Below, one piece after another: positions 1-63,251 of a DNA stretch of 64,000 bases. The DNA is from Candidatus Tenebribacter davisii (GTDB lineage: Bacteria > Cloacimonadota > Cloacimonadia > Cloacimonadales > TCS61). The notes under the pieces are model-generated. The model searched no databases. It was not told the DNA's origin and saw only the letters and a list, made by a program, of their open reading frames with translations. The stretch's first letter is position 1. The number at the start of each line of letters is the position of its first letter. The translations under genes and the position numbers were made by a program. The stretch lies in NCBI GenBank assembly GCA_030765535.1, contig JAVCCH010000098.1, positions 38,563 through 102,562 on the forward strand, given 5' to 3'.

Positions 1-555
1 TTTTTGGTCCTTAATAACGGTTAAATTGTTTAGCTCCGCTTGAAAAGTTGTTTTATGATATCCAAATCCTATTTATTTGGAATGTGAAAAGTTTGGGCTT
101 ATTATTTTGCGAATCAGGTTTTGGTTGCTAACCGCCCGGTCACCGCCTTTAACTTTTTATTTTTTAGGGGATGTTATAAACTGTATCATTATAAAGTTTA
201 TAAGTAGGTATCCTGTTTGGTTAACTCAGACCCACCCAACAATTATGTAAAAGATCAGCTTGACTATCCCGCCCCCTCTTGCCTTGCTCCTCTTGCTGCC
301 CCTCTCACCTGCCGTCAGGTGAAACTACTATACGCTAATAAAAAACATAACACAACCCCTTGAAATCATTGAACAATATGGCATATACCGCTTGTAAGCT
401 ATTGATATCATTGAATAATTTTTACCTATAAAAAAAATTCATCTATGCAAAAAAAGATATGTAATAAAATCAGATACTTACAAGATAAATGGAAAAATAA
501 TTAGTTTAAAAGTATTTACTAATAAAAAAACATAATAAAATCAGATAGTTATACA

Positions 556-590
556 ATTAATTTATTTTAATTTATTTTAATTTATGTTTA
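556..590. repeat. 10-bp tandem repeat ttaatttatt x3
   Basis: Direct reading: tta att tat ttt aat tta ttt taa ttt atg. Confidence 0.8.
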
Positions 591-776
591 AAATCGGTTT
601 TTGTATGATTTAAGGCCGATTTAAACCGGTATATATATGATAGTACTCGAATAGATCAAAACCGGCTTAAATAGGCTAAATACAGCGTTTTACGCCTATT
701 TTGTCGTCTCTTATAACGTACACGGGCGCAGGCCCGGTCTATTAATTTTTTGACGGGCGCAGCGTAGAATAATCAA

Positions 777-819
777 TACAAGAATGGAGCAAGAATGGAA
801 CAAGAATGGAACAAGAATG
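777..819. repeat. 11-bp tandem repeat caagaatggaa x4 (one helical turn periodicity)
   Basis: Direct reading: acaagaatggagcaagaatggaacaagaatggaacaagaatga. Confidence 0.85.
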
Positions 820-1096
820 ATAAAATATGAATAGCGATTCCATTAAATGAATATGATTCATTGACTAAATCGGATTTAGTAAATTGAATTCATTTGTAGA
901 ATACCGCTCGATAACATGGCCCGGATCAAACCCGGATTTACTGAATTGAATTTAGCGAATAAATCAGGTTCAATTGTATACAAAAAACTGCCGTGTAACA
1001 TACTGATATTATAGGGAAAACTTGACCTATTAAGATTTGAGTTTTATACATAGGGCAGGCCCGGTCCTTGTCATACGTCTCTTAAATAGGCAAATA

Positions 1097-1122
1097 ACAC
1101 GTTTAAACACGTTTAAACACGA
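1097..1122. repeat. 10-bp tandem repeat acacgtttaa x2.5
   Basis: Direct reading: acacgtttaaacacgtttaaacacg. Confidence 0.8.
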
Positions 1123-1348
1123 TATAACATTTATTACACAATTTTAATCTAAATTAATTTATGCCGGAAAAATATCAGAAATAAGAAATTATTCATCCAC
1201 TGAATCAGATTCATTATATATCACCACGATATTAAATGAATATGACGCAATATTTGACTATTGTTTAATGTGAATATACAATATAATTATAATATATAAA
1301 ATGAATCTGATTCATTTAATGAATATCGGGTCTGATTTAAACATTAAC

Positions 1349-1478
1349 TGAATTGTATTCATTCGCTGAATCAGATTCATCCACTGAATCAGATTCATCC
1401 ACTGAATTGTATTCATTCGCTGAATCAGATTCATCCACTGAATCAGATTCATCCACTGAATCAGATTCATCCACTGAA
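1349..1478. repeat. 18-bp tandem array (gaatcagattcatccact) about 6 copies; each unit contains the near-palindrome tgaatcagattca
   Basis: Direct reading. The repeated unit creates the spurious 64-aa ORF 1353..1547 (ESDSSTESDSSTE...). Confidence 0.85.
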
Positions 1479-1629
1479 GCCCCTTTATTTTATGAAGCCG
1501 GGGCCTACTTCTCCATCACGTTGAAAAATTTCAGATATCTGTATTAACAGGTATTGCCAGTAGTATTATCTCCACGTTGAAAAATTTAAAATCCTTGTAT
1601 TACCAGTAATTATCTCCAACATATATAAA

Positions 1630-1692
1630 ATACAATATAAAATCCAATATAAAATCCAATATAAAATCCAATATAAAATCCATTTTCCTCTT
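1630..1692. repeat. 12-bp tandem repeat tccaatataaaa x5 (phased A-tracts, likely bent DNA)
   Basis: Direct reading: tacaatataaaatccaatataaaatccaatataaaatccaatataaaatcc. Confidence 0.85.
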
Positions 1693-1717
1693 GTATTATT
1701 TTTATACATTTTACTCT

Positions 1718-1746
1718 TGACAACCCTTTATTAATGCTTTATCATC
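1718..1746 (+). promoter_or_regulatory. Candidate sigma70-type promoter TTGACA-N17-TATCAT just upstream of the first + strand gene
   Basis: cttGACAaccctttattaatgctttATCATc; -35 is a perfect hexamer and -10 matches 5/6. Confidence 0.35.
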
Positions 1747-1752
1747 AACTCC

Positions 1753-2085
1753 ATGAAAACAATCACCAAAAAAGAACCTACAAATAATACCTTGAATACC
1801 CAAAGGGGTCCCTTGAACAACAGTATGAGAATTTCTATCAGGATTTCTTCAGTAGTAACTTCTTTATCTATTAAAAAGAATTTAATCGCTATATGGATTT
1901 TGCTTATGAACACGGACCCGAAGGATAGCAAGGATGATTTAACTGATTTCGTTTATACTTGTTTAGATAAATGGGATAAAGATACTGCCAAAGGGTTAAG
2001 TGATTTTGTTTCAGAGAAATTAATTCAAGATATGCTTGAGGCTGAAGATTATATTGAATACAAGAAAATTCTTGAGGGGTTATAA
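1753..2085 (+). CDS. Hypothetical protein (110 aa)
   Basis: ORF starts a few nt after the candidate promoter, so it may be leaderless. No recognisable motif. Confidence 0.3.
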   Translation: MKTITKKEPTNNTLNTQRGPLNNSMRISIRISSVVTSLSIKKNLIAIWILLMNTDPKDSKDDLTDFVYTCLDKWDKDTAKGLSDFVSEKLIQDMLEAEDYIEYKKILEGL

Positions 2086-2094
2086 GGATTAGCT

Positions 2095-2835
2095 ATGAGG
2101 AAACTAAAAAGAAAACCAGTAGGTAAACCAACATCACCAATATCAGATCCAATAACTGAACGTAAAATATTACATGCTGAGAAAGCTGAAACCAAGTCTA
2201 AATCCAAGCCAGAATCCAAACATAAGTCCATACACAAAACATTAAAGAAGGTTACTTCTAAAGCTCCTCTTAGGACAATCAGAAGATATAAAAAGCAAAA
2301 GTGTAATTTTGTTACTATAGATATTGATACCAAAGAGCCAAAGCAATGTAATTTCTTTGCTGTAGGAAAAGGAACATTATGTAAAAAGCATGGTGGAGAT
2401 CCTGTTATAAAAGAAAACTTAATTTCAATTAAGGATGAGACATTATTACCAATGCATTTATCCAAGTTTAATCCAGCAGTACATCCACTGCAATATATTA
2501 ATTTAAGTAGAGAGGGAATGTCAAAAGTAGAGATTGCAGCTTCAATGGAAATCTCTGTCCAAGTATTGAAAAGCTGGGCAGAAAGATTTGAATCCTTTAA
2601 TACTGCAAGTGAGATAGGAGATGCATTACACGAATCCTGGTGGATACAGAGAGGAAAGGGTGGGTTAGATTCAAGGAATTTCAATACTTCTTTGTTTAAA
2701 TTCTTGACCAGTAACAAATTAGGTTATTCTGATAAAATGGAAACAAAGAATACCAACATGAATATGCATGGTGTTTTATTAATACCTGATGCTGTTACCG
2801 AAGATGAATGGGAAAAGGATGCCATAGATGTCTGA
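2095..2835 (+). CDS. Putative small terminase subunit or DNA-binding protein (basic N-terminus, HTH-like segment)
   Basis: AAGGA RBS. Lys-rich N-terminus. The segment LSREGMSKVEIAASMEISVQVLKSWAERF resembles a sigma-70 region-4 / TerS-type HTH. Position immediately upstream of the large terminase. Confidence 0.4.
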   Translation: MRKLKRKPVGKPTSPISDPITERKILHAEKAETKSKSKPESKHKSIHKTLKKVTSKAPLRTIRRYKKQKCNFVTIDIDTKEPKQCNFFAVGKGTLCKKHGGDPVIKENLISIKDETLLPMHLSKFNPAVHPLQYINLSREGMSKVEIAASMEISVQVLKSWAERFESFNTASEIGDALHESWWIQRGKGGLDSRNFNTSLFKFLTSNKLGYSDKMETKNTNMNMHGVLLIPDAVTEDEWEKDAIDV

Positions 2836-3304
2836 TATAAGAATTCCATCAATGTTGCTTATTTGTATTGGGAATAGTAGGGGAATGGAATGTTTCCCAT
2901 TGATAAATATGTGGAGTATTTCCAGGAAAAGACAATGGAGAGATAAGCCAGAATCAGAGAAAGAAGCTCATAGGCAAAAAATGAGAGAAGTAATGCCAGG
3001 GGTTCGTAGAAAATACATGAAGACCATAACAGCAAAGCAGAAGAAAGTATTTGCCAAGATGATGAGTGATGGAAAGAAGAAATACTGGGCTAATATTTCT
3101 GAAGAAGATAAAAAAATCCATATTGCTAAAATGGCTGCTGGTATAAAAGTAGCCCGTGAAAATAATAGATATCCCAAAAACACATTTACTCCAGAAAAAG
3201 CAAGAAGGACATTGCATGGCATTAAAGAAGTTATTGAATTGCCAAGGGTAAATACATATAGTGGAACTATCACAATGTCTGAAATGGAGAATCTAAATGC
3301 TTAA
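2828..3304 (+). CDS. Hypothetical basic protein (158 aa); alternative small-terminase candidate
   Basis: Start overlaps the upstream stop. Lys/Arg-rich. Sits between the HTH protein and the large terminase. Confidence 0.35.
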   Translation: MSDIRIPSMLLICIGNSRGMECFPLINMWSISRKRQWRDKPESEKEAHRQKMREVMPGVRRKYMKTITAKQKKVFAKMMSDGKKKYWANISEEDKKIHIAKMAAGIKVARENNRYPKNTFTPEKARRTLHGIKEVIELPRVNTYSGTITMSEMENLNA

Positions 3305-3319
3305 CAGGATGGATTATAA

Positions 3320-5677
3320 ATGGCAAGAAAACCTATAATCATATGGAAACCGTGGCCCGGATCTCAGCAGAAGTTCTTGACATGTCCTGCATGGGAATGT
3401 CTCCTTCATGGTAACAGAGGCGGCGGTAAAACGGACGTTCTTATTATGGATTTTCTGCAAGATGTTGATAAAGGGTTCGGGATTGATTATAAGGGGCTAT
3501 TGCTCAGAGAAGCAACCACAGAACTTGGTGATGTTATATCGAAGACAAAGAAGTGGATTCCACGAATCTTCCCTCTTGCAAAATATAATGGATCAAAGAA
3601 GATATGGACATTTTCAGATGGTGAAACTCTTTGGTTGAATTATGCTCGGGTTGAAGCTGATTATGAACAGTATCATGGGCATGAGTACCCATGGATTGGT
3701 TGGGAGGAATTAACCAACCATGCGTTTGACAAAGTTTATAAAAAATTGATGTCTTGTAATCGGTCATCCAACGCAGGAATCACACCAAAATATAGGGGAA
3801 CTTGTAATCCAAGTGGTCCAGGACATCAGTGGGTTAAGCAAAGATTCATTGATGCTACACAAACAGGTAAAATTCTTAAAGAAGATATAGAATTCGAGTA
3901 TCCCAATGAAAAGGGTGATACGGTTTCAACAACATTAACTGTAACCAGAACTCATGTCAGAAGTTTTCAAGCAGAAAATAAATCATTGGCTGAAGCTGAT
4001 CCTTTATATATGGCTAAAATATATGAATTGACTAAAGATAATGAAATGCTTAGAGCCGCATGGATTGATGGTTCCTGGGATTTATTGATTGGTGGATTTT
4101 TTACTGATGTGTGGGATAAAGATATTCATGTGTTACCAACATTCAAAGTTCCTACTTCTTGGGATCTTATCAGAAGCTTTGATTGGGGTTCTTCTAAGCC
4201 TTGGGCAGTCACTTATGGATTTATAACAAATGGGGAACAACCTGATCCTCATTTACTTGGTGGAGAGATTATTCCATATATCCCAAAGGGTTCAGTGATC
4301 ATTTGCACTGAGATATATGGATGGAACGGAAACATAAATGAAGGTGATCAAGCCGTATCTTCTGAAATAGCAGAGCGTGTTTTGGCAGTTGACAATGCTT
4401 TATTAACTGAGTATGGTATACGTTGTGTTCCTGGACCAGCAGATACTTCCATTTACGATGTAAGAGACGGGACATCAATTGGAGCTAATTTAGGATCTTG
4501 TGGATGTCATTGGACAAGAGCTTACAAAGGAGCAGGATCAAGAGTTGCTGGATGGTCAATTATTAGACAAATGTTAGGTGCTGCAAAAAGAGGTGATATA
4601 GAAACTCCACATCTGTACTTTTTTTCTCAAGCAGAGCATCACATTAGAACATTACCAGTTCAACAGAGAGATCCGAAGAAGCCAGAAGATATTCAATGTT
4701 TTGTGGCAGGTACTATGGTGTCCTTAGAAAATGGATTTAGAAAGATTGAGGATATACTGGTTGGTGATATTGTTAAAACTCCGATAGGGTTGCGAAAAGT
4801 AATAAATGCCGGTTCTACTGGATTTGCAAAAATAACAAAGGTAATTTTCGGTGAAAATGAATTAAAGGGAACTTTTGACCATCCAGTATTTGTAGAAGGT
4901 GAAGGATTAGTTTCATTAAGTAAATTGGTTAAAGGAGATATTTTATGTCAAAACTCATTACATATTTTAGAGGAATCAAATTCACAAGTGTCAATGAGGG
5001 ATACTTTGAATGCCACCACAGTAATCGTAAAATTTTTGATGGAACAACATTGTTGCACAGAGCAAAATGGCAATTCTATATTGGACCAATTCCAGCAGAA
5101 CATGAACTCCATCATAAAAATAGAATCAAATATGATTGCAGTAGGAAAAATCTTGAACTTCTTCATGGCTCAGATCACGCAAGATTCCACCTGCAAGAAA
5201 GAATGCAGAAAGGTGGGGATTGTTACGAAAAACTTAAAATATGGAGAAAATCTAAAGAGGGTAAACGACAGCTTCGATCTAATATTAAAAAATGTAGAGA
5301 AAATACTCCCGAAAGAAAATTTACGTGCGATTACTGTGGTAAGGTTGTTATTACAAAACATCCATCAAAGAAATTTTGCTCCCTTAAATGTAAAGAAGCA
5401 ATATCAGGAAAAATTAAAAAAGAATGTGTCATGTGCGGAGAATTCTTCTGGACAAAACCACACAACACAAGAGAAACACAAACTTGTGGTTACGCATGTG
5501 GATGGGAATTGCGACGAAGCAACAGTATATAATTTGACAACTGAGCAATCAGGAATGTATTATGCGAACGGCGTTCTTGTTTCTAATACAGATGGAGAGG
5601 ATCATTGTATGGATTCCGCACGTTACCTAATTGCCAGAAGAATGTCAGCAATGAAACAAAGATCAGTAAAAAGTTAA
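3320..5677 (+). CDS. terL: Large terminase subunit precursor containing a 297-aa intein
   Basis: Walker A GNRGGGKT near the N-terminus. The C-terminal nuclease motif TDGEDHCMDSARYL resumes directly after the intein. Intein block A begins CFVAGTMV, block B is GTFDHPVF, and blocks F/G are VYNLTTE..MYYANGVLVSN followed by Thr+1. Confidence 0.8.
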   Translation: MARKPIIIWKPWPGSQQKFLTCPAWECLLHGNRGGGKTDVLIMDFLQDVDKGFGIDYKGLLLREATTELGDVISKTKKWIPRIFPLAKYNGSKKIWTFSDGETLWLNYARVEADYEQYHGHEYPWIGWEELTNHAFDKVYKKLMSCNRSSNAGITPKYRGTCNPSGPGHQWVKQRFIDATQTGKILKEDIEFEYPNEKGDTVSTTLTVTRTHVRSFQAENKSLAEADPLYMAKIYELTKDNEMLRAAWIDGSWDLLIGGFFTDVWDKDIHVLPTFKVPTSWDLIRSFDWGSSKPWAVTYGFITNGEQPDPHLLGGEIIPYIPKGSVIICTEIYGWNGNINEGDQAVSSEIAERVLAVDNALLTEYGIRCVPGPADTSIYDVRDGTSIGANLGSCGCHWTRAYKGAGSRVAGWSIIRQMLGAAKRGDIETPHLYFFSQAEHHIRTLPVQQRDPKKPEDIQCFVAGTMVSLENGFRKIEDILVGDIVKTPIGLRKVINAGSTGFAKITKVIFGENELKGTFDHPVFVEGEGLVSLSKLVKGDILCQNSLHILEESNSQVSMRDTLNATTVIVKFLMEQHCCTEQNGNSILDQFQQNMNSIIKIESNMIAVGKILNFFMAQITQDSTCKKECRKVGIVTKNLKYGENLKRVNDSFDLILKNVEKILPKENLRAITVVRLLLQNIHQRNFAPLNVKKQYQEKLKKNVSCAENSSGQNHTTQEKHKLVVTHVDGNCDEATVYNLTTEQSGMYYANGVLVSNTDGEDHCMDSARYLIARRMSAMKQRSVKS
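4697..5587 (+). mobile_element. Intein inside terL (Cys1 at 4697, terminal Asn at 5585-5587, +1 Thr)
   Basis: Hint motifs are in the host frame at both ends. The central roughly 180 codons of frame 0 have no recognisable domain, while an HNH ORF occupies frame +2 (see next feature). Confidence 0.7.
4945..5532 (+). CDS. HNH endonuclease ORF nested in the alternate (+2) frame inside the terL intein
   Basis: Own RBS-ATG (aaAGGAGAtattttATG) directly after a stop in that frame. Classic HNH motif HHSNRK...HELHHKNRIKYDCSRKNLELLHGSDHARFH, plus C-terminal Cys pairs CDYCGK...CSLKC...CVMCGE...CGYACGW (zinc ribbons). Confidence 0.6.
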   Translation: MSKLITYFRGIKFTSVNEGYFECHHSNRKIFDGTTLLHRAKWQFYIGPIPAEHELHHKNRIKYDCSRKNLELLHGSDHARFHLQERMQKGGDCYEKLKIWRKSKEGKRQLRSNIKKCRENTPERKFTCDYCGKVVITKHPSKKFCSLKCKEAISGKIKKECVMCGEFFWTKPHNTRETQTCGYACGWELRRSNSI

Positions 5678-9469: not shown

Positions 9470-9685
9470 ATGAAGCTTTTCAAAGGCGATAGAATCATGC
9501 AGAGCGTAGACAAACACCAATTGCAGGATTGTCTCGATGCCGGATGGAGCAGAACAAAGGAAACAAAGGTTCCTGTAGAAGTCCTTGAAAAAGTGGAAGT
9601 CCCTGAAAAAGTGGGAGTCCCTGAACCTGTAGCGAAAGTGAAAATTGCCACAAAGAAAAAACTTAAATCAATTAAGAAAAAATAG
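9470..9685 (+). CDS. Small Lys/Glu/Val/Pro-rich protein (71 aa), possibly head-associated
   Basis: Strong RBS (gggagaAGGAGtaccaaATG). Repetitive VPVEVLEKVEVPEKVGVPEP segment. Confidence 0.4.
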   Translation: MKLFKGDRIMQSVDKHQLQDCLDAGWSRTKETKVPVEVLEKVEVPEKVGVPEPVAKVKIATKKKLKSIKKK

Positions 9686-32050: not shown

Positions 32051-35000
32051 ATGGCTGATGAAAAACTGACAGGTATACCACAATTAACAACACCTCCAAT
32101 AGCTGCGGATTTAATTTATGTTGTAATTGATATTGTTGGAACTCCCACAAGCATGTCCACTACTTTTGCGAATCTGGTTCTTGGGATTACTCTCGATGCC
32201 AGCGCAATAGAAATAACAGATTTAGCTGATTATTATGTTGCAGAAGATGTGGAGGGTGTCTTTGCGGAAATAGGAGAAACCAGAAGTATTAATGGATATG
32301 ATTTAACTGATCCTGATTCCCTTCCTGATTTAGCTTTTAATAATAGCACTCTGACATTTAGCTGTTCTGTTAAAAGTGGTCAATCAAGTTTTCATTTTTG
32401 GGCAGATGATAAGAAAATAATTAAAACTACGTCACAAAGCGTAGTTATTCCTGATATCACAGGCACATATTATATCATTTTTGATACCACAGGCACCCTT
32501 ATATATGTCAACCAAGATGCTGTAGCCCAAGATGACTTTTATGAACACGCTATTACTGGTTTGGTTTATTGGAATAAAACAGCCCAGGCAAGTATGGTTG
32601 GTGATGAAAGACATGGTATCTTAATGGACCCCAGAACCCATCATTATAATCACAGCACATTTGGGTCAAGATATGAAAGTGGTCTAAATATTAATGGGTT
32701 AGCTGATGCCAGTCCTACGTATACTGAAACAACAAGTGGATTTTTCTGGGATGAAGACATTCGACATACTCTTGCATTACAAAGCACTCATCCATTTATT
32801 TATAAATTAGGCGCAACTGGTGAATGGACTGGCACAACCCCCGATAACAAGGTTGGGTTTGAGAATGGAACTGGTGATGTTGTGTACAATGAGTGGACTG
32901 GCACAACTTGGCAATTAACCCAGAGTGCTGCTGCTACTGACTTTATGATTTACTTCATGATAGCAACCCCTGATATTCTTGGGTATAATGTTAAAAAAAT
33001 CATAGGTCAAAACGGTTATTCCACAAGAGGCAATGCAAGAGCAGCAATAGAAAGTGAGCTACAGAAACTCGTAATGGAAGGTCTTCCTTCACCTGAATTT
33101 ATATTCCTTTATGCTTATATTGTAAAAAGAAATGGTGATTTAGAGGACATGGCAGATGGCAGTCTCTACCTCGATTTACGCACAAGTAAAGGGGGTGTAG
33201 GAGGTAGTGTTAGTGGATTATCCAGTGTAGCTGCTGATGTAAGTATTGCTGATGCTGGAAATATTATAACTGCTACAGAAGTTGAGGGGGCATTACAGGA
33301 AAACCGCACAGCAATTGATTTTAATACTGCAAAAGTAACCAATGCAACACATACTGGTGAGGTTACTGGCTCTGAGGTATTAACAATCACTGACAATGTG
33401 ATTGATGAGTCCAATTTAAAACTGGATGAAGCGGGTTCTAATGATTATATATTAACAAAAGATACAGCGAAAACTGGTGGTATGAAGTGGTCTGCTCCTG
33501 CGGATGTTTCAGTAGAATTGGGTTTTGTAAACAAATCAAATTGGGTAGACGATGAACAAATCACAATCACTCTGGATACTCCCGCTGATGCTATTACTGA
33601 GGCCCATGTATCTGTCTATGAGGAAGTTCCCCAAGATACCCTTACAAATAATTCTTGGGACATCACAACAGGAGATACAGGTTTTACACTGGAAGACACA
33701 GCTTATGCTGTAACCCTGACACCAGGAGCCGTAACAGGCGGCTCAGTGAGCTTTACACTTGGATCTGGGTCTTGGGCATCAACAGATGTTTCTAAGATTA
33801 TCAAAAATGTGAGTTCTGGTGAAACTGGAGAAGCAAGAATTATCTCCATAGCAAGTGGTGTTGCTACTTGTCAGATTAGCATAGATTTTACCAACACTGA
33901 TGCAATTGCAAGTGGTGATTGGGAGATGGTTGCTGGTGAGTTTGTTAATGGTGCATTTGAATTGGGGTTTGCTGTTGATCCAGCTGTTGCTGGTGGTATT
34001 GCTGCTGTTTTTGAGAGTGCAAGTACATATTATACATCAGTAGTTATGATATCCGCTACCAAAGCAATTGTTTGCTACCAAGATGTTGGTAACTCCAGTT
34101 ATGGAACAGCTTGCATCTTAGACATTTCTGGTTCAACCATCACACCAGGAACACCAGCGGTTTTTGCGAGTTCTATTGTTACAACTACCTCAGTGGCAAT
34201 GCTAACATCAACCAAAGCAATTGTTTGCTACCAAGATGATGGTAATTTAGAATACGGCACAGCCTGTATCTTAGACATTTCTGGTTCAACCATCACACCA
34301 GGAACACCAGCGGTTTTTGCGAGTTCTGAAATCTTTTGGTCTTCAGTAGCGATGCTAACATCAACTAAAGCAATTGTTTGCTACAGAGATGATGATACTT
34401 CAAACTATGGCACAGCTTGCGTGTTAGACATTTCAGGGTCTATAATCACTCCAGCAACACCAGTGGTATTTGATAGCACATATGTTAACAGTCCATCAGT
34501 AGCGATGCTAACATCAACCAAAGCAATTGTTTGCTACCAAGATGTTGGTAACTCCAGTTATGGAACAGCTTGCATCTTAGACATTTCTGGTTCAACAATA
34601 ACACCAGGAACACCAGCAGTTTTTGAGAGTGCATCTACCACATATACCTCAGTGGCAATGCTAACATCTACAAAAGCAATTGTTTGCTATCGGGATAACG
34701 GTAATTTAGAATACGGCACAGCCTGTATCTTAGACATCGTTACTTCGACAATTACCCCAGGAACACCAGTGGTCTTTGAGAGTGCAAGTACATATTATAC
34801 CTCAGTAGCAATGCTGACATCAGATCAGGCAATTGTTTGCTATAGAGATGTTGGTAACTCCAGTTACGGCACAGCTTGTGTGTTAGACATCGCTACCTCG
34901 ACGATCACCCCAGGAACACCAGCAGTTTTTGAAAGTGCAAGGTCTGACTATGTTGCAGTAACAGCACTGTCCTATTCAAAAGTAATAACCGTGTATAAAG

Positions 35001-35680
35001 ATTTAGGCAACTCAGGCTACGGAACATCAGTAATAATAGATACATCCTCAACAGCATACCTCGACAACCAATTCATCCCCACAATCTCAGGCTCAGATTC
35101 AGTAGACACAGACCTGTACACTGATTTAGTTTCCATGACAACAACCGAGACACTAAATGATCAGACCATAAACTACGCCTTCTCCTTTGATCCAACTTTC
35201 ATTGATATGGAATTGAATGGCGGGACATTTATAGTTGTCGGTTCAGGTGAAACAATTGCAAGAAATATAATCAGTTCACTTAACTCAATCCATGGGGGTG
35301 TAGAAGGAAATTGGTACATCAATACTAATTCTGTGTATGCTTCTGAAACATGGACGGCAGCAACAATAAACAACCCTTATGCAGCATTATCACAAGCAAT
35401 GGAAACAGTCAATAATACCATGAGTGGCACAGCCACAAATGCCGTAGCAGATGCTAACTGGCCCTCTTTTGGGTCTTATTTTGCTGCATCAATTATCCTT
35501 CACACAGATGATGACACGGTTACACCAAGTGCAGACAAAATCAGCTTTGAGTATGAGGCGAATGCCTTCAATGTCTTGAGCCATGAATATGAAGTTATTA
35601 TGAACACTGTGGATACTGTTCTTGTTACAGCACCGAGTTCTGGTGGTCCAAGGAATGCCAGAGTTTACATAAGCAAATAG
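32051..35680 (+). CDS. Large fibre / receptor-binding candidate with 8 near-identical repeats of about 50 aa (beta-propeller-like)
   Basis: The repeat unit SVAMLTSTKAIVCYQDxGNxxYGTACILDISGSTITPGTPAVFxS occurs 8 times (about 34000-35000), nearly identical at the DNA level. RBS GGGAG. Confidence 0.5.
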   Translation: MADEKLTGIPQLTTPPIAADLIYVVIDIVGTPTSMSTTFANLVLGITLDASAIEITDLADYYVAEDVEGVFAEIGETRSINGYDLTDPDSLPDLAFNNSTLTFSCSVKSGQSSFHFWADDKKIIKTTSQSVVIPDITGTYYIIFDTTGTLIYVNQDAVAQDDFYEHAITGLVYWNKTAQASMVGDERHGILMDPRTHHYNHSTFGSRYESGLNINGLADASPTYTETTSGFFWDEDIRHTLALQSTHPFIYKLGATGEWTGTTPDNKVGFENGTGDVVYNEWTGTTWQLTQSAAATDFMIYFMIATPDILGYNVKKIIGQNGYSTRGNARAAIESELQKLVMEGLPSPEFIFLYAYIVKRNGDLEDMADGSLYLDLRTSKGGVGGSVSGLSSVAADVSIADAGNIITATEVEGALQENRTAIDFNTAKVTNATHTGEVTGSEVLTITDNVIDESNLKLDEAGSNDYILTKDTAKTGGMKWSAPADVSVELGFVNKSNWVDDEQITITLDTPADAITEAHVSVYEEVPQDTLTNNSWDITTGDTGFTLEDTAYAVTLTPGAVTGGSVSFTLGSGSWASTDVSKIIKNVSSGETGEARIISIASGVATCQISIDFTNTDAIASGDWEMVAGEFVNGAFELGFAVDPAVAGGIAAVFESASTYYTSVVMISATKAIVCYQDVGNSSYGTACILDISGSTITPGTPAVFASSIVTTTSVAMLTSTKAIVCYQDDGNLEYGTACILDISGSTITPGTPAVFASSEIFWSSVAMLTSTKAIVCYRDDDTSNYGTACVLDISGSIITPATPVVFDSTYVNSPSVAMLTSTKAIVCYQDVGNSSYGTACILDISGSTITPGTPAVFESASTTYTSVAMLTSTKAIVCYRDNGNLEYGTACILDIVTSTITPGTPVVFESASTYYTSVAMLTSDQAIVCYRDVGNSSYGTACVLDIATSTITPGTPAVFESARSDYVAVTALSYSKVITVYKDLGNSGYGTSVIIDTSSTAYLDNQFIPTISGSDSVDTDLYTDLVSMTTTETLNDQTINYAFSFDPTFIDMELNGGTFIVVGSGETIARNIISSLNSIHGGVEGNWYINTNSVYASETWTAATINNPYAALSQAMETVNNTMSGTATNAVADANWPSFGSYFAASIILHTDDDTVTPSADKISFEYEANAFNVLSHEYEVIMNTVDTVLVTAPSSGGPRNARVYISK

Positions 35681-49323: not shown

Positions 49324-50414
49324 AATCCACTCCTTCCACACACAGGACACTCTGTTTCTGCCCTGATTTTATCGTGTTGTTTTATGGCTTCATTCACTTC
49401 TTTAGTAGCTATTTTATGTTGTTCTTCATTTCTTTTAATTTTTACCAAAAGATCTCGGACAATTTCAATTTGTTCATTGTATTTATTGATAAATATCTTT
49501 TGCTTCTGTAGTGCTTTTAACGCTGTTAGAGCTTCAACAGTATCACTACTATCAGAAAGCTTTAAATCAACAAGTTTGATAGCTTCAACAGTGTTTTGAA
49601 TGATAGCTCTTTGATCTTCCTTGTTGCTAAGAGCTTCGCTTTGATCACAAAGACGTACAAGAGCTATTTTGGCTATACCAATATCATCGAACTCTTTCAA
49701 TTTTTCGTCAATATTTTTAATGAGTCTTATATTTTCAGATAATTCTTGGAACTCAATTTTTTTATGTTCTGCTTTGTGCATAAACTGTTCTAATTTCTTG
49801 GCAAACTTCTCTGCCTTCAGTACCCATTCAGTTTCTTTGAGTTCTTTTTGACGATCTTCAATTCCTTTTTTATGCACACCTATCTCAGCATTACATGATC
49901 TGACCTGTGAATTAATACTTTTTATTGCATCATCCATTATAGTCAGTCCAGCAACTTTGTTAAATTGCTTTGCTACCTGTCCTGGCTTATCTGCCAGTAG
50001 GAAGTATTGTTCTGTGGGATGCTGTCCCTGAATGTTGACTTCCTTCATTCTGGTTATTTCTTGTACTTCATCAGGAACATCAGTTTTCAAAGCTCTAAGA
50101 GGTTCTTGATTATCTATTTGATAATGATTTATACCCCCAGCATAACCATCTCTTGCTCTTGTTACAGTCCCAGAATCTTTATATTTGATTATGACTTCAG
50201 TGGCTTTTAATTTATCCTCTTTCTTTTTGGGATCAAGTTTATCATCTCTGTAACTATCACCTTGAGGACGATTCTGGGCATTCCATTTTATCTGTCTGAT
50301 TAAACCAGATTTACCTTCATCACTCGCACCAATTAAAATATTCACACCTTCATGTAATTCTATGTGCATATCTTGGTGTGTTTCAAAATATTTACTTTCA
50401 ATAGAATCAATCAT
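49320..50414 (-). CDS. SbcC/Rad50-like ATPase, N-terminal half (Walker A and coiled coil, ending at the zinc hook CPVCG)
   Basis: Walker A ILIGASDEGKSGLI. Long coiled coil. The C-terminus is ...ETECPVCGRSGL, a CxxC hook motif. Confidence 0.6.
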   Translation of the reverse strand: MIDSIESKYFETHQDMHIELHEGVNILIGASDEGKSGLIRQIKWNAQNRPQGDSYRDDKLDPKKKEDKLKATEVIIKYKDSGTVTRARDGYAGGINHYQIDNQEPLRALKTDVPDEVQEITRMKEVNIQGQHPTEQYFLLADKPGQVAKQFNKVAGLTIMDDAIKSINSQVRSCNAEIGVHKKGIEDRQKELKETEWVLKAEKFAKKLEQFMHKAEHKKIEFQELSENIRLIKNIDEKLKEFDDIGIAKIALVRLCDQSEALSNKEDQRAIIQNTVEAIKLVDLKLSDSSDTVEALTALKALQKQKIFINKYNEQIEIVRDLLVKIKRNEEQHKIATKEVNEAIKQHDKIRAETECPVCGRSGL

Positions 50415-50956
50415 TATTGAATATTCTCCTTTACATAGTTATATGCAGGGCTATCACAACAAACCCATCCAACACATTGCTCTGCTGCAAGTCTTGCACA
50501 AACAGCATTATCAAAATCAACATATCTATCAAGATGTATAGTTTTCTGATTTATTTTTATTTTTGATTCCCATTTATTTCTGCTCTTACAATAATAAACT
50601 CCTTTAATGCCTGATGTATTATGTTTAAAATTTCCTGTATTTTGTAAATTACGTTTGTGTGTTAATTCTCTTAGATTACAAATACGGTTATCGTTTTTAA
50701 TTCTGTTTATATGATCAATATCATTTTTAGGTAAATACCCATAAAAACCTATCCAAATAATTTGATGTGCATAAAATCTTGAATTACCTATACCAACTCT
50801 TAAATAACCATTACAAGAATCTTTTATTATATCCCCAATTTTTATACGTGGACAATTTGGGCATTTCCATCTGAGAACTCCTGTTTTTTTATTATATGAA
50901 AATAATTTCCTAACTTCTTTTTGTGTTGGGGTTACTTTTTTTAATTTCTGCATCAA
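50414..50956 (-). CDS. HNH homing endonuclease with C-terminal AP2 DNA-binding domain (copy 1)
   Basis: HNH motif DIDHINRIKNDNRICNLRELTHKRN. AP2-like segment SGIKGVYYCKSRNKWESKIKINQKTIHLDRYVDFDNAVCARLAAEQ. Confidence 0.7.
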   Translation of the reverse strand: MMQKLKKVTPTQKEVRKLFSYNKKTGVLRWKCPNCPRIKIGDIIKDSCNGYLRVGIGNSRFYAHQIIWIGFYGYLPKNDIDHINRIKNDNRICNLRELTHKRNLQNTGNFKHNTSGIKGVYYCKSRNKWESKIKINQKTIHLDRYVDFDNAVCARLAAEQCVGWVCCDSPAYNYVKENIQ

Positions 50957-52925: not shown

Positions 52926-53315
52926 TTATTCTTCCTTTGGCATTATAACTTCAATGAATAAATCAGGCGCATTAACAATTAAACGATCTTCCAGCATGGT
53001 AACTGCGGAATAGTCGATATCTTTTGAATGAGATACAATAACAATAGCACCAACAGGGATTGATATTTTTCCCATTTCTTCAATTGGTTTTACTTCTGAA
53101 GCAACAGGATCAGGAAGCATTCCAGGCAAAGAATTTAGATCAATGAGCATTTGAATATCATCAGCTTCTAAATCCAAAGAAACTTGATACTCTGCGAAGT
53201 CGTCACTCTTGCCTGTTTCCATGCAAAACCAATCTAAATCACCATCTTCTATATCGTCTTCATACATCCATGTATTATCTGACCATACAAAAATTTTTAT
53301 TAATTCCTCTGACAT
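52926..53315 (-). CDS. Highly acidic protein (129 aa)
   Basis: Asp/Glu-rich, for example YEDDIEDGDLDWF and DLEADDIQMLIDL. Confidence 0.35.
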   Translation of the reverse strand: MSEELIKIFVWSDNTWMYEDDIEDGDLDWFCMETGKSDDFAEYQVSLDLEADDIQMLIDLNSLPGMLPDPVASEVKPIEEMGKISIPVGAIVIVSHSKDIDYSAVTMLEDRLIVNAPDLFIEVIMPKEE

Positions 53316-53851
53316 TGTATATTCTCCTTCACATATTGGTAAGCAGGACTACTACTATCACACCCTTCCCAATTTAAACATTGCTCTCCTGCTAAACGAG
53401 CGCATACGGCATTGTTAAAATCTTTATAATACCCAAGCCCTTTATTTTTGAAATTTAAAGTAATTTGAGCTATCCATTTACTTCTATTTTTATTCCATAC
53501 AACTCCTTTTACACCGCTTGTATTATTTTTAGGAGTTCCTTGATTTCTTTGTTGACATTGATCAGAAGCTTCTCTTAGATTTAAAATCCAATTGTGATGT
53601 TTTATTTGATCTTCGTGATCAATTTGATTTTCAGGCATATACCCGTGATAGTGGAAATATGCAAGTCTATGAGCTAAGTACAATTTTCCATTTACACATA
53701 TTTGGATGTATCCTTTTTTATTTTTAGATCCTGCAATATCACCTATTTTTACTCTTGAACTATTTGATATTTTTCTTATAAAAATACCAGTTAATGAGTT
53801 GTAATCTAATTGTCGCAGGAGTTCCTTATAAGTTAGTTTTTCAGTCCTCAT
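53300..53851 (-). CDS. HNH-AP2 homing endonuclease (copy 2)
   Basis: QIDHEDQIKHHNWILNLREASDQCQQRN plus SGVKGVVWNKNRSKWIAQITLNFKNKGLGYYKDFNNAVCARLAGEQ. Confidence 0.7.
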   Translation of the reverse strand: MRTEKLTYKELLRQLDYNSLTGIFIRKISNSSRVKIGDIAGSKNKKGYIQICVNGKLYLAHRLAYFHYHGYMPENQIDHEDQIKHHNWILNLREASDQCQQRNQGTPKNNTSGVKGVVWNKNRSKWIAQITLNFKNKGLGYYKDFNNAVCARLAGEQCLNWEGCDSSSPAYQYVKENIQCQRN

Positions 53852-57462: not shown

Positions 57463-58089
57463 TTATTCATTCAATTCTATGACTTCCTCAGATTTAATTT
57501 TCTTCAGTACATCTTTTGATGATCCTACGGCAATACTGATTTTTCTGACATGATTCTTTACATATTGATAAGCAGGACTACACGAATCACAACCTTCCCA
57601 ATTTAAACATTGTTCTACTGCAAGACGGCAACAAACAGCATCATCAAAATCTTTGAAAGTTCCTAAATTTTTTGTTTTTTGATTTATAGCAATCATAGCT
57701 GTCCAATATCTATCTCTTTTAGAAAAAGTGACTCCCTTAACTCCACTTTTATTATCCTTTCTATTTCCTGCATTTTTAATATTACATGATCTGGAAACTT
57801 CCCTAAGATTACTAATCCGATTATTATGCTTTACTCTATCAATATGATCAATATCATTTTCCGGAAAATAACAATAAACATAAAACCAAGCAAGTCTATG
57901 AGCTTTGTACTGTGTTGTATTAACACGTATAGCAATATACCCTTCAGAATTTTTATACCCTGCAATTTCTCCAATCTTAACACTTTGATTATTAGAAATT
58001 TTTCTTATAAAAATTCCTGTTAATGGATCATAATCAAGTTGCCTTACCAATTCTTCGTGAGTCAATTTTTCTTTTTCTAAGTGATTCAT
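57463..58089 (-). CDS. HNH-AP2 homing endonuclease (copy 3)
   Basis: DIDHIDRVKHNNRISNLREVSRSCN plus SGVKGVTFSKRDRYWTAMIAINQKTKNLGTFKDFDDAVCCRLAVEQ. N-terminus is about 70% identical to copy 2. Confidence 0.7.
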   Translation of the reverse strand: MNHLEKEKLTHEELVRQLDYDPLTGIFIRKISNNQSVKIGEIAGYKNSEGYIAIRVNTTQYKAHRLAWFYVYCYFPENDIDHIDRVKHNNRISNLREVSRSCNIKNAGNRKDNKSGVKGVTFSKRDRYWTAMIAINQKTKNLGTFKDFDDAVCCRLAVEQCLNWEGCDSCSPAYQYVKNHVRKISIAVGSSKDVLKKIKSEEVIELNE

Positions 58090-62282: not shown

Positions 62283-63251
62283 TTACCTTTTACGGCGTTT
62301 TCTTTTCACAGTAGTTCCGTCAGAACCGGATGGTTTTGTTCTGTCAGCAGGACGTTTTCTTTTAGGAGGAGTGGGTGTGTCCTCTTCCTTGTCATCACCG
62401 AAACCAGAATCATCAATATCCGTACTCTCATCATCAGCCCAAGGATTATCTTCTGCATCTCCTGGACCATCAGGCTCATCCAGCAGTTTCATCTTTTTCA
62501 ATGTGCCACGGAATTCTTTTTCAATTTCTGCATAATCAGGGTGCATATTTACGATGCTATCCAAGGGGAATGTAAGATCAAGAATTTTATTTGGGATTGG
62601 TGAGTCTCTTTCAACTAAACGATGGCCGAGATGAGTTGTATTTGTCATACTGGCACCCTTACGAGTCCAGGCAAGAGATCTCCCTGAATCAGGATCAGAG
62701 AATTTTACGAACCCACCACCTTTTGGCAGTTTGGCAATTGCTTCAATATTTGCTTCCATAAAGAAATGTGAAGCTTCATGAATCTGAATGCCTTTCCTCT
62801 CTTCTTCCCTGTTATCATGAACCCACAGAAAATAAACAACCCGATGTTTTGCTACGAGGTTTTTCCAGTCATCTTTGTCAAGCTTGTTTGCTTTCATGAA
62901 TTCACAGATAGGACAAGGTTCACCAAAGTTTTCATGCGGACAAACATAAGGTTTGAGCATTTCCCCTACATTTGTATGGACAAATAAGTCCAGAACATAA
63001 TCCAAATTACCTTCTTCCGTTACCGGCTGAAGCCGTTCATCAAAAGGCATATCAGGACCAGCTTCAAAGGGAATGATATCAACAATATGTTCTCCCTCTT
63101 TACATTTCCAGAACTCAACTCCTTCGGGAACTTTGTCCTTATTGAAGATGGTTGGAAATCTTCCCCCACCTGTTGATTTAGTGCCTTGATTGTGCCTTTT
63201 TCCAAGGCTTTTACTACCGCCGCTTTTCGCCATCCTATCTCTGAAACCCAT
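62283..63251 (-). CDS. T4 gp32-like zinc-binding ssDNA-binding protein with acidic region and unusual basic C-terminal tail
   Basis: His-13...CPHENFGEPCPIC reproduces gp32 zinc-ligand spacing (H-13-C-9/10-C-2-C). Acidic DEPDGPGDAEDNPWADDESTDIDDSGFGDD. Terminal KRKRPADRTKPSGSDGTTVKRKRRKR. Confidence 0.55.
   Translation of the reverse strand: MGFRDRMAKSGGSKSLGKRHNQGTKSTGGGRFPTIFNKDKVPEGVEFWKCKEGEHIVDIIPFEAGPDMPFDERLQPVTEEGNLDYVLDLFVHTNVGEMLKPYVCPHENFGEPCPICEFMKANKLDKDDWKNLVAKHRVVYFLWVHDNREEERKGIQIHEASHFFMEANIEAIAKLPKGGGFVKFSDPDSGRSLAWTRKGASMTNTTHLGHRLVERDSPIPNKILDLTFPLDSIVNMHPDYAEIEKEFRGTLKKMKLLDEPDGPGDAEDNPWADDESTDIDDSGFGDDKEEDTPTPPKRKRPADRTKPSGSDGTTVKRKRRKR

What the first reader, a model, noticed from the sequence alone, without database searches (positions are those of the whole stretch)
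1..1750. A 1.75-kb non-coding region containing at least five unrelated tandem iteron families
The arrays are 10-bp x3 (556-590), 11-bp x4 (777-819), 10-bp x2.5 (1097-1122), 18-bp x about 6 with an embedded palindrome (1349-1478) and 12-bp x5 A-tract repeats (1630-1692). Scattered tgaatcWgattca palindromes (about 1200-1320) and a C-rich tract plus hairpin (270-323) add to them. With helical-turn periodicities and a position directly upstream of terS/terL, this looks like an origin and packaging-recognition hub rather than ordinary intergenic DNA.
Basis: seen in the sequence. Interest (0 to 1): 0.55.

Follow-up and report, generated by a model that had tools for sequence, protein, structure and literature searches.

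The report
Repeat-packed phage early/late control region
A 2.2-kb gene-free stretch between the early and late genes of an uncultured phage is packed with real, fast-changing tandem repeats that look like docking sites for DNA-binding proteins, and one repeat type recurs in front of the packaging genes of unrelated phages, but whether it starts replication, packaging or late transcription is unproven.

Summary
All five tandem arrays exist and are far beyond chance: 5 arrays against 0.04 per shuffle, and 5 of the window's 9 arrays lie in 2.7% of its length.

The non-coding stretch is larger than reported. It spans window -449..1752 (2.2 kb) and separates a leftward early arm from the rightward ORF110-terS-terL-portal arm of an uncultured siphovirus.

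Main results:
- Four near-identical contigs differ only in array copy number.
- Relatives keep the gap and its arrays, but the unit sequences are replaced.
- A TTGACA-17-TATnnT promoter (1717-1745) is conserved across the family.
- The four least stable DNA windows of 65.6 kb all lie in this region.
- The 18-bp array is a row of TGAAT-N3-ATTCA palindromes, which fits sites for a dimeric protein.
- The same array, period and order of parts sits upstream of terL in three phage lineages with no detectable protein similarity. Its presence does not follow TerS phylogeny.

Function is unresolved. My best guess is an iteron-plus-unwinding-element origin inside a divergent promoter region (about 0.35). 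Packaging or late-operon control is close behind (about 0.3).

The contig-end clustering comes from assembly breaks inside repeats. GC skew is confounded by gene strand. I rate this a new variant of a known kind, of moderate interest.

The parts
1..1752 (.). Window part of a 2,202-bp non-coding divergent region (window -449..1752). It lies between a leftward early arm and the rightward ORF110-terS-terL-portal arm.
   Evidence: ORF lists and family scans. L002 and L001 extend the sequence upstream of window position 1. Relatives keep the same gap.
270..322 (+). C-rich tract (about 270-300) followed by the 7-bp-stem hairpin CACCTG-CCGT-CAGGTG (305-322).
   Evidence: Sequence read. DNA fold -6.4 kcal/mol, z = -5.1. 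No T-run follows, so it does not look like a terminator.
360..418 (+). Two copies of the motif TTGAWATCATTGAAYAA (360-376 and 402-418).
   Evidence: The exact 17-mer recurs in relative L013 at 590. Variants of the form YTTGAWTTTATTG occur in L007 and L025. Shared k-mers exceed shuffles.
454..593 (.). AT-rich trough: ATAAAATCAGATA x2 (454-476, 525-547), the 10-bp x3.4 array TTAATTTATT (557-591), and 9% GC over 494-593.
   Evidence: It has the lowest GC and the least stable 60-bp duplex of the 65.6 kb examined. ATAAAATCAGATAGTTA recurs in L025 on the opposite strand.
778..819 (+). 11-bp x3.8 array ACAAGAATGGA.
   Evidence: Relative L013 has arrays built on the same CAAGAAT core at a 10-bp period.
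848..954 (.). Dispersed palindrome sites: TGAATATGATTCA (848-860) and one-mismatch copies at 880-892 and 942-954.
1096..1129 (+). 10-bp x2.6-3.4 array AACACGTTTA. It is preceded by the dispersed repeats GCAGGCCCGGTC (728-739 and 1055-1066) and CTTAAATAGGC (666 and 1081).
1190..1325 (.). Two palindrome sites (1201-1213, 1302-1314) inside 32-nt inverted arms. They bracket a 72-nt spacer of very AT-rich DNA.
   Evidence: Inverted repeat I1, 88% complementary. Region 1226-1325 is 18% GC and 1266-1325 is the third least stable 60-bp window. Fold z = -3.0.
1347..1478 (.). 18-bp array of seven TGAAT-N3-ATTCA palindromes with a 54-bp super-unit. I read it as a row of binding sites for a dimeric protein.
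   Evidence: Copy number differs between near-identical contigs. A homologous array is present in L013, L025, L020 and L028. The same array type occurs in unrelated viral contigs.
1476..1505 (.). G/C-run element GAAGCCCC...GCCGGGGCC directly after the array.
   Evidence: A G/C-run or hairpin follows the array in L025, L013, L102, L093, L098 and L104, and looks like a terminator in the last two. The window's own copy folds weakly (z = -0.5).
1517..1611 (+). Two copies of a 39-nt unit, 56 bp apart (CACGTTGAAAAATTT...TGTATTA).
   Evidence: Family D8. Repeats of 58-68 bp x2-3 occupy the same position in L102 and L093.
1623..1682 (+). 12-bp x5 array ATATAAAATCCA, at about -129..-70 from the predicted start of the late promoter.
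   Evidence: It has 5, 4 or 3 copies in near-identical contigs. Arrays of 8-14-bp period lie upstream of the conserved promoter in 22 of 24 relatives.
1693..1703 (+). GTATTATTTTT, a family-wide motif (GTAKTATTTTT) about 15-30 nt upstream of the -35 hexamer.
   Evidence: Alignment anchored on the promoter. The motif is not enriched elsewhere in the window.
1717..1745 (+). Sigma-70-type promoter TTGACA-17-TATCAT reading into ORF110-terS-terL.
   Evidence: Best match in the region, 11 of 12. The same promoter, at >=10 of 12, is found before the ORF110 homologue in 23 of 29 relatives.
1753..2085 (+). ORF110, the conserved first gene of the late arm, function unknown.
   Evidence: Homologues in about 40 related loci. 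Nucleotide conservation resumes at about 1828. No Pfam, PHROG or PDB hit. The AF2 model is poor.
2095..5677 (+). Context: terS (2095-2835), ORF158 (2828-3304) and terL with an intein-like insert (3320-5677).

Best explanation
Window 1-1752 is most of a 2.2-kb divergent control region of an uncultured, apparently virulent siphovirus. Early genes run leftward from it. The ORF110-terS-terL-portal-head-tail genes run rightward from it.

Shown:
- The arrays are non-random, confined to this region and variable in copy number.
- Relatives keep the same repeat-rich architecture while the unit sequences turn over.
- A near-consensus sigma-70-type promoter (1717-1745) is conserved across the family and reads into the packaging operon.
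- The genome's most easily melted DNA lies here.

Inferred:
- The region is a platform of protein-binding sites.
- The seven 18-bp units (1347-1478) and the isolated copies (848, 1201, 1302) are sites for a dimeric sequence-specific protein, with half-site TGAAT and a 3-bp centre. This protein loads at one dimer per 18 bp.
- With the adjoining AT-rich DNA (1226-1325, and 494-593 at 9% GC), these sites form an iteron-plus-unwinding-element unit. I take this as most likely the phage's replication origin. Its position matches the c2-type lactococcal phages, where the origin lies in the non-coding DNA between the divergent early and late blocks.
- The 10-12-bp arrays, spaced at about one helical turn, are architectural or regulatory elements of the flanking promoters. 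The 12-bp array lies at -129..-70 of the late promoter, and a 10-bp A-tract array sits in the early leader.
- The binding protein is unidentified. It is probably not TerS.
For: - Arrays are real and beyond chance.
- Divergent topology and true extent of the region.
- Palindromic units in tandem at a fixed period match the layout of lambda-type iterons (my own knowledge). The iterons of lambda and Stx phages are mentioned in PMC11447400.
- The four least stable 60-bp windows of 65.6 kb all lie in the region. One of them is bracketed by two inverted palindrome sites.
- Palindrome presence is patchy within the family and does not follow TerS or ORF110 similarity. This is expected for a site tied to an exchangeable early or replication function.
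- In L105 the same array heads an arm that contains a DNA helicase.
- Copy number varies between otherwise identical genomes, so function tolerates 3-7 units, as iteron sets do.
- Short conserved motifs survive in otherwise unalignable DNA: 28 shared 11-mers against 1.95 in shuffles.
- GC skew changes sign across the region. This is consistent with an origin but confounded by gene strand.
Against: - No initiator gene was found. The adjoining early ORFs are orphans.
- Array-bearing lineages share no ORF family in the flanks held.
- The phage and its relative L088 encode their own PolA, clamp, clamp loader, gp32-like SSB and UvsX-like recombinase. From my own knowledge, T4- and T7-like systems of this kind usually start from promoter-type origins and by recombination, not from iterons.
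- There are no DnaA boxes.
- In three unrelated lineages the array sits 0.4-2 kb upstream of terL, in the same order of parts. This fits a packaging or late-operon role at least as well.
- GC skew is not independent of coding strand.
- All evidence is sequence-based.
Confidence: 0.35

Rival explanations
1. Packaging or late-operon platform. The 18-bp palindrome array, the G/C element after it and the 56-bp repeats form the packaging-initiation (pac) recognition region, or a control complex for the terminase operon. A protein bound along the array marks the concatemer where terminase starts, or gates the strong late promoter 250-400 bp downstream.
For: The same array type, the same 18-bp period and the same order (array, G/C run, 56-68-bp repeats x2-3, first ORF of the terminase operon) occur in L102, L093/L101 and L098. 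The structural proteins of those phages show no BLASTP similarity to the window's or to each other's. The element lies directly upstream of ORF110-terS-terL. From my own knowledge, repeated elements occur in known packaging sites such as lambda cosB R sites, SPP1 pacL/pacR boxes and P1 pac hexamers. The TerL type suggests headful packaging, which needs a pac site near terS.
Against: Palindrome presence does not track TerS similarity within the family. No TerS similarity was detected between array-bearing lineages. From my own knowledge, palindromic sites fit poorly with a ring of TerS subunits that each present one HTH in the same orientation, and known pac sites are short and often lie inside terS. 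In L105 the array heads a replication-type arm rather than a terminase operon. The promoter is near-consensus and the array lies far upstream of it, which is unusual for an operator. Contig ends give no terminus signal.
Confidence: 0.3
2. Purely transcriptional switch region. The arrays are operator or activator sites and bending elements for the divergent early and late promoters. Phage-specific regulators bind them, and there is no role in replication or packaging.
For: A conserved promoter lies at 1717-1745, with a conserved upstream GTAKTATTTTT motif. Arrays of 8-14-bp period lie upstream of that promoter in 22 of 24 relatives. Periods near one helical turn suit cooperative binders on one DNA face. 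A 10-bp A-tract array and a 21-bp inverted repeat sit in or near the early leader. Bacterial genomes use pairs of the same palindrome, some of them next to TetR-family regulator genes.
Against: Seven to ten tandem sites lying 250-400 bp from the promoter is far more than operators normally need. No regulator gene was identified. A consensus -35/-10 promoter should not need an activator. The 1.8 kb between the two promoter zones is much more than divergent promoters require.
Confidence: 0.15
3. Neutral minisatellites. The arrays are by-products of replication slippage or end-repair in unconstrained AT-rich spacer DNA and have no sequence-specific function.
For: Copy number is the only difference between near-identical genomes. 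Unit sequences are replaced between relatives. Many arrays consist of perfect, and therefore young, copies.
Against: A 1-2-kb gap is maintained at the same place in compact genomes across the family. The TGAAT-N3-ATTCA palindrome, its 18-bp period and the order of neighbouring parts are conserved across lineages with no protein similarity. Short motifs are conserved well above shuffled expectation.
Confidence: 0.07
4. Another cis function. One option is a T5-like injection-stop or DNA-entry control region. Another is a centromere-like partition site for a carrier state.
For: [quoted passage not shown] Here the region adjoins small early ORFs, each preceded by a hairpin motif. From my own knowledge, tandem palindrome-bearing repeats resemble F sopC.
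Against: There are no DnaA boxes. There is no sign of long terminal repeats, and the TerL type points to headful packaging. No parA/parB, integrase or repressor was found in the ORFs scanned. The T5 repeats are conserved in sequence and order, whereas these are not.
Confidence: 0.08

Closest known systems
Iteron-type phage origins (lambda ori and lambdoid or Stx phages; satellite origins such as PLE or SaPI)
   Same: Tandem units of about 18-19 bp, each with internal dyad symmetry, sit next to AT-rich, easily melted DNA. Unit number varies between relatives.
   Different: From my own knowledge, lambda's iterons lie inside the initiator gene. Here they are in non-coding DNA and no initiator is recognisable. 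There are 7-10 contiguous units at a strict 18-bp period rather than 4-6 spaced ones. There is no sequence similarity.
Ceduovirus (lactococcal phage c2 type) intergenic origin region
   Same: A non-coding region between divergently transcribed early and late blocks. It is one of the most variable parts of otherwise similar genomes and is flanked by promoters (PMC7150918).
   Different: The c2 origins are a few hundred bp long and act through a non-coding transcript. This region is 2.2 kb, is dominated by tandem arrays, and is unrelated in sequence. No transcript data exist for it.
Phage T5 injection-stop (iss) repeat region
   Same: [quoted passage not shown]
   Different: The T5 region lies in a long terminal repeat, carries eight paired DnaA boxes, and is conserved in sequence and order among T5-like phages. 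Here there are no DnaA boxes, no evidence of terminal repeats, and rapid sequence turnover.
Packaging recognition sites (lambda cosB R sites, SPP1 pacL/pacR, P1 pac hexamer sets)
   Same: Repeated short elements lie just upstream of terS and terL. The link to terL is seen in four unrelated lineages.
   Different: From my own knowledge, the known sites are shorter, are not long palindrome arrays, and are recognised by the adjacent TerS. Here the site does not co-vary with TerS, and no terminus can be mapped.
Plasmid or prophage centromeres (F sopC, R1 parC)
   Same: Tandem repeats that each carry a protein-binding site, with variable copy number, able to build a higher-order complex.
   Different: No partition genes were found in the ORFs scanned. 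The gene content points to a virulent lifestyle.
Two-box bacterial operators with TGAAT half-sites (ARG boxes; TetR-family operators)
   Same: The half-site is TGAAT/ATTCA. Pairs at 18-bp spacing occur in diverse bacterial genomes, some next to TetR-family genes.
   Different: From my own knowledge, ARG boxes have a 4-bp centre. Every site here has a 3-bp centre. Bacterial loci never show more than two adjacent boxes, and arrays of 4-10 were found only in viral contigs.

Membership tests
Iteron-type replication origin (lambda-like) | Three or more tandem repeats of about 17-22 bp that are individual binding sites (internally symmetric in lambda) | tested here: met
   Seven 18-bp units, each holding TGAAT-N3-ATTCA.
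Iteron-type replication origin (lambda-like) | Adjacent AT-rich DNA-unwinding element | tested here: met
   Region 1226-1325 (18% GC) abuts the array. The four least stable 60-bp windows of 65.6 kb all lie in the region.
Iteron-type replication origin (lambda-like) | Cognate initiator gene containing or adjoining the iterons | tested here: inconclusive
   No initiator-like family was found in the adjoining ORFs. No ORF family is shared by array-bearing lineages. The orphan early ORFs and the part of the genome not held cannot be excluded.
Iteron-type replication origin (lambda-like) | Replication initiates there, or the region supports replication | not testable with these tools
   This needs marker-frequency data or a cloning assay.
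Ceduovirus c2-type intergenic origin | Non-coding region between divergent early and late gene blocks | tested here: met
   The definition comes from PMC7150918.
Ceduovirus c2-type intergenic origin | Flanked by early promoters that produce a non-coding transcript | tested here: inconclusive
   Only consensus scans were possible, and the count of promoter-like sites is not above shuffles. A TTGACG-19-TAAAAT candidate seen by eye is unverified.
Ceduovirus c2-type intergenic origin | Sequence relatedness to the c2, bIL67 or 923 origin types | tested here: not met
   No blastn match of 1-1750 to any phage record.
pac/cos packaging recognition site | Located at or next to the terminase genes | tested here: met
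   It lies 270-750 bp upstream of terS. The same position is seen in L102, L093 and L098.
pac/cos packaging recognition site | Repeated elements recognised by the cognate TerS (site and TerS co-vary) | tested here: not met
   Palindrome presence does not follow TerS similarity. No TerS similarity exists between array-bearing lineages. Binding itself was not tested.
pac/cos packaging recognition site | Virion DNA termini or the first cut map to the site | not testable with these tools
   No reads were available. Contig ends near the region fall inside tandem arrays, which indicates assembly breaks.
T5 iss repeat region | [quoted passage not shown] | tested here: met
   The definition comes from 10.1101/866236.
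T5 iss repeat region | Paired DnaA boxes (TTWTNCACA) in a fixed arrangement | tested here: not met
   No box lies in the intergenic region. The single match in L002 is inside the 201-aa gene.
T5 iss repeat region | Lies within a long terminal repeat of a genome injected in two steps | not testable with these tools
   The genome ends are unknown. The TerL type suggests headful packaging.
Centromere (sopC, parC or parS type) | Adjacent partition ATPase and adaptor genes | tested here: not met
   None were found among the ORFs scanned in the window and in L001. Small ORFs and the unheld part of the genome were not scanned.
ARG box (ArgR operator) | TGAAT-N4-ATTCA core inside 18-bp boxes, paired 2-3 bp apart (my own knowledge) | tested here: not met
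   Every site has a 3-bp centre and an 18-bp centre-to-centre spacing. No TGAAT-N4-ATTCA enrichment was seen.

The most novel reading that the evidence does not exclude
The TGAAY-N3-RTTCA array at a strict 18-bp period, followed by a G/C element and 56-68-bp repeats, is a previously undescribed cis-module that can move between phages. It is shared by virulent phages with otherwise unrelated proteins and marks the junction where the early and packaging arms diverge. A conserved but unidentified factor reads it, possibly a host protein or a very small phage protein. It would then be a common start signal for replication or packaging, or a sponge that titrates a host regulator or defence protein. 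Its hypervariable copy number would tune that interaction within populations.
Probability: 0.2. Interest if true: 0.7.

Novelty: new variant of a known kind. Interest (0 to 1): 0.48.

Why it matters
Origins, pac sites and early/late switches of uncultured phages are almost never annotated, because they are non-coding and evolve fast. This region shows a way to find them without sequence homology: by architecture. The recognisable features are a maintained gap at the strand-switch point, arrays at helical periods, extreme melting troughs and a conserved promoter.

The same palindrome array, with the same period and the same neighbours, lies in front of the terminase operon of phages that share no detectable proteins. 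That points to a reusable cis-module with an unknown reader.

The copy-number differences between otherwise identical genomes also make the arrays natural strain markers. They explain why assemblies of these phages break at this spot.

Tried and rejected
- Close relatives among cultured phages or plasmids: none. Megablast and blastn of the region found no match. Portal and TerL have only distant protein hits.
- Non-coding RNA: no tRNA. No Rfam family reached its gathering score. At E<=1 there were only chance miRNA-like hits on a long hairpin. In the palindromes the stems are conserved and the centres vary, which fits DNA recognition rather than RNA hairpins.
- A coding reading of the 18-bp array: four of six frames are open by construction, and gene callers annotate a 45-aa ORF there. 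The 'family' linking these ORFs across phages is just the array itself.
- Physical ends from contig termini: an apparent cluster of contig ends 3.6-5.5 kb upstream of the portal dissolved when the contig starts were read. They begin inside tandem arrays.
- Finding the rest of the source genome: exact look-ups of three window proteins and two DNA scans with the window's end found nothing. The metagenome scan with the array found only L002's contig.
- YuA, the nearest TerL clade, as a model: it has a different gene order and no comparable region.
- DnaA boxes: absent.
- ORF110 as a ribbon-helix-helix binder: suggested by the invariant RISIRISS strand-like motif. It is unsupported. There is no Pfam or PDB sequence hit, the AF2 model has pLDDT 57, and there are no fold matches. 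Its putative DNA-contact residues are invariant while the arrays differ between lineages.
- Early-arm neighbours of the region in relatives and in other array-bearing phages: all orphans.
- A single host regulon for the palindrome: bacterial hits have mixed contexts, including a DUF4143 ATPase, SDR/TPP enzymes with TetR genes, flagellin and purK.
- More copy-number comparisons in other near-identical locus pairs: the pairs were either identical or too divergent to be informative.
- Extending L102 upstream: the scan returned the same locus.
Full report
1. WHAT THE WINDOW IS

The 64-kb window is an uncultured tailed phage. The plus strand from 1753 to about 43360 carries these genes:
- a conserved 110-aa ORF
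- terS (2095-2835, PHROG 309)
- a 158-aa ORF
- terL (3320-5677)
- portal
- scaffold
- a P22-type coat protein
- a 1622-aa tape measure protein
- a 2974-aa J-like tail protein

The minus strand from 43701 to the window's end carries these genes:
- a thymidylate-synthase-like gene
- SbcCD-like genes and exonuclease genes
- an Endo VII-like gene
- HNH-AP2 endonucleases
- a UvsX/RecA-like recombinase
- a gp32-like SSB

A relative whose SSB is 80% identical continues this arm with a PolA-UDG fusion, a clamp and a clamp loader. I found no integrase, repressor or partition gene. No cultured phage is close: the portal is below 30% identical to any, and the best TerL hits are 44% identical to the M6/YuA group.

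2. THE OBSERVATION

Chance does not explain them.
- Dinucleotide shuffles of 1-1750 give 0.04 arrays of TRF score >=50 per shuffle, against 5 observed.
- Five of the nine such arrays in the whole window lie in its first 1.7 kb.
- The palindrome TGAATNNNATTCA has all 10 of its exact matches between 848 and 1469.
- There are no tRNAs and no Rfam families.

3. THE TRUE EXTENT OF THE REGION

Five public contigs encode the identical TerS.
- L002 matches window 1-4052 at 100% and extends 1,588 nt further upstream. L001 extends 2,938 nt further upstream.
- The non-coding stretch continues to window -449, where a 201-aa minus-strand gene starts. The intergenic region is therefore 2,202 bp and lies between divergently oriented arms.
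- The extension adds a 10-bp A-tract array (x5.8), a 27-bp repeat (x2.5) and a 21-bp perfect inverted repeat (z = -9.6).

4. POPULATION VARIATION

Among L001-L004 and the window, every difference in the region lies in or at a tandem array, and all are changes in array copy number:
- the 10-bp array differs by 1 unit
- the 27-bp repeat differs by 1 unit
- the 18-bp array differs by 72 nt, which is one 54-nt super-unit plus one unit
- the 12-bp array has 5, 4 or 3 units

The short arrays are well below read length, so I take their variation as real. The 132-bp array is close to the assemblers' k-mer size, so its variant needs read-level confirmation.

5. RELATIVES

A portal search gave 80 related IMG/VR loci at 55-80% portal identity.
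- Those that reach far enough upstream keep a 1-2-kb gap between minus-strand genes and the ORF110-terS-terL block. Each gap holds several tandem arrays.
- Nucleotide alignment is lost throughout the gap except for the 18-bp array of L013. Conservation resumes inside ORF110.
- Short motifs survive: 28 11-mers are shared by at least 3 lineages, against 1.95 in shuffles. These motifs are TTGATATCATTGAATAA (exact in L013), ATAAAATCAGATAGTTA (in L025), CAAGAAT arrays (in L013) and a G/C island.
- A promoter of the form TTGACA-17-TATnnT precedes the ORF110 homologue in 23 of 29 loci at >=10 of 12 matches. A conserved GTAKTATTTTT motif lies just upstream of it.
- Arrays lie within about 490 nt upstream of that promoter's predicted start in 22 of 24 relatives, mostly with 8-14-bp periods and within 320 nt. 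Their units are specific to each lineage.
- The apparent clustering of contig ends in this region is an assembly effect. Those contigs begin inside tandem arrays.

6. PHYSICAL PROPERTIES

The four least stable 60-bp duplex windows of the 65.6 kb examined all lie in the region, as do four of the five lowest-GC 100-bp windows.
- The 100-bp window 494-593 is only 9% GC.
- The low-GC window 1226-1325 contains the unstable 60-bp window 1266-1325 and is bracketed by two inverted palindrome sites. It directly abuts the 18-bp array.
- GC skew switches from about -0.3 in the early arm to about +0.2 in the late arm across the region. This mirrors the coding strand, so it is not independent evidence for an origin.

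7. THE 18-BP ARRAY

Each unit holds a 13-bp palindrome, TGAAT-N3-ATTCA. The isolated copies are 17-bp palindromes, AATGAAT-N3-ATTCATT. The half-sites are conserved and the centre varies. That pattern indicates a dimeric DNA-binding protein rather than an RNA hairpin.

Within the family, the site is present in the window, L013, L025, L020 and L028. It is absent from L007, L019, L035, L051 and L079. This distribution does not follow TerS or ORF110 similarity.

A scan of IMG/VR for two adjacent sites at the 18-bp period found 15 loci.
- Seven lineages have arrays of 4-10 sites in non-coding DNA.
- In L102, L093/L101 and L098 the array lies 0.4-2 kb upstream of a terL gene.
- In L102 and L093 the order of parts is the same as in the window: array, then a G/C-run element, then 56-68-bp repeats x2-3, then the first ORF of the terminase operon. 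In L098 only the G/C hairpin after the array was seen.
- The TerL, portal and coat proteins of those phages show no BLASTP similarity to the window's or to one another's. No ORF family is shared in the flanks.
- In L105 the array heads an arm that contains a helicase gene.
- In 596 Gb of bacterial genomes the pattern occurs only as single pairs of adjacent sites. It appears even in genomes of 66-74% GC, in mixed contexts, some next to TetR-family genes. Arrays therefore appear to be specific to phages.

8. INTERPRETATION

Firmly supported:
- This is the divergent early/late control region.
- It contains a conserved promoter of host sigma-70 type for the packaging arm.
- Its arrays are functional cis-elements rather than junk. 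The gap is maintained in compact genomes, motifs are conserved, and a module is conserved across lineages.

Not resolved: what the arrays do.

I put an origin first, at about 0.35, for four reasons:
- The layout is tandem palindromic iterons next to the genome's melting troughs.
- The position matches c2-type phages, whose origin lies in the variable non-coding DNA between the divergent early and late blocks (PMC7150918).
- The site is uncoupled from TerS phylogeny.
- Copy number varies without apparent harm.

A packaging or late-operon role follows at about 0.3. The repeated co-location with terL in unrelated phages supports it. So does the need for a pac site: the nearest TerL clade is described as circularly permuted and headful-packaging (PMC11946847).

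A purely transcriptional role (0.15), neutral minisatellites (0.07), and a T5 iss-like or centromere-like role (0.08) are less likely. The iss comparison (10.1101/866236) fails on DnaA boxes.

9. NOVELTY

Repeat-rich non-coding control regions are a known kind of feature in phages. Three points appear new:
- The architecture is conserved across the family despite complete turnover of unit sequences.
- Copy number varies at the population level.
- One palindrome-array module recurs upstream of terminase operons in phages that share no detectable proteins.

A full-text search found no prior description of such arrays. I classify the finding as a new variant of a known kind. Its interest is moderate and would rise if the protein that reads the array is identified.

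Noticed in passing
window 3320-5677 (+): TerL carries a clean 297-aa insertion (residues 459-755) relative to the 77%-identical 487-aa TerL of relative L007. Pfam gives weak Hint and intein-splicing hits. This looks like an intein in the terminase nuclease domain. Relatives split into TerLs of about 475-495 aa and about 780-950 aa.
   Followed up: partly
window 59859-62279 (-): The UvsX/RecA-like recombinase is interrupted by an intein with LAGLIDADG homing-endonuclease domains. It sits next to a gp32-like SSB (62283-63251).
   Followed up: partly
window 50414-50956, 53300-53851, 57463-58089 (-): Three free-standing ORFs resemble HNH homing endonucleases, and two of them have AP2 domains. Together with the two inteins, this phage carries an unusually heavy load of selfish elements.
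   Followed up: no
L001 82-2630 (window about -2860..-310, outside the window): Six copies of a hairpin motif, GGGTTTCCTAC-N3/4-GTAGGAAAC. One lies in front of each small minus-strand early ORF, 15-25 nt before an AAAGGGGG-type ribosome-binding site. The motif is absent from the 64-kb window and from relatives. It could be an early promoter or operator, a processing site or a translational control element. The intergenic 21-base repeats of phage TLS are a possible parallel (PMC11447400).
   Followed up: partly
L002 1330-1388 (window -258..-200): A 21-bp perfect inverted repeat with a 17-nt loop (DNA fold -25.6 kcal/mol, z = -9.6) lies just upstream of the early arm. Its right arm contains a TTGACG that could serve as the -35 of an early promoter. 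Two further hairpins follow at window -180..-100.
   Followed up: partly
window 34007-34941 (+), inside the 1209-aa ORF 32051-35680: Coding tandem repeats of 153 bp x6.1 (also 459 bp x1.9). These are repeated domains in a large structural protein with no family match.
   Followed up: no
window 9578-9625: An 18-bp x2.7 tandem repeat (GAAGTCCCTGAAAAAGTG) lies in the gap between the coat gene and the next ORF. It is the only other intergenic array of this kind in the window.
   Followed up: no
L106-L134 (bacterial genome contigs): Pairs of TGAAT-N3-ATTCA boxes 18 bp apart occur in very diverse bacteria, including genomes of 66-74% GC. Recurrent neighbours are a DUF4143/AAA_14 ATPase, SDR plus TPP-enzyme genes, and TetR-family regulators. 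This suggests a widespread two-box operator type with this geometry.
   Followed up: partly
L105 2155-2877, L096 633-1349, L007 2809-3510: A PHROG 421 protein of unknown function is encoded near the palindrome array in two unrelated array-bearing contigs. It is also encoded in the early arm of relative L007, which lacks the palindrome.
   Followed up: no
window 1753 (start of ORF110): The conserved promoter places the predicted transcript start at about 1752, directly at the ATG of ORF110. The first late mRNA may therefore be leaderless. Gene callers instead start the ORF at 1906, although conservation with relatives begins by 1828.
   Followed up: partly
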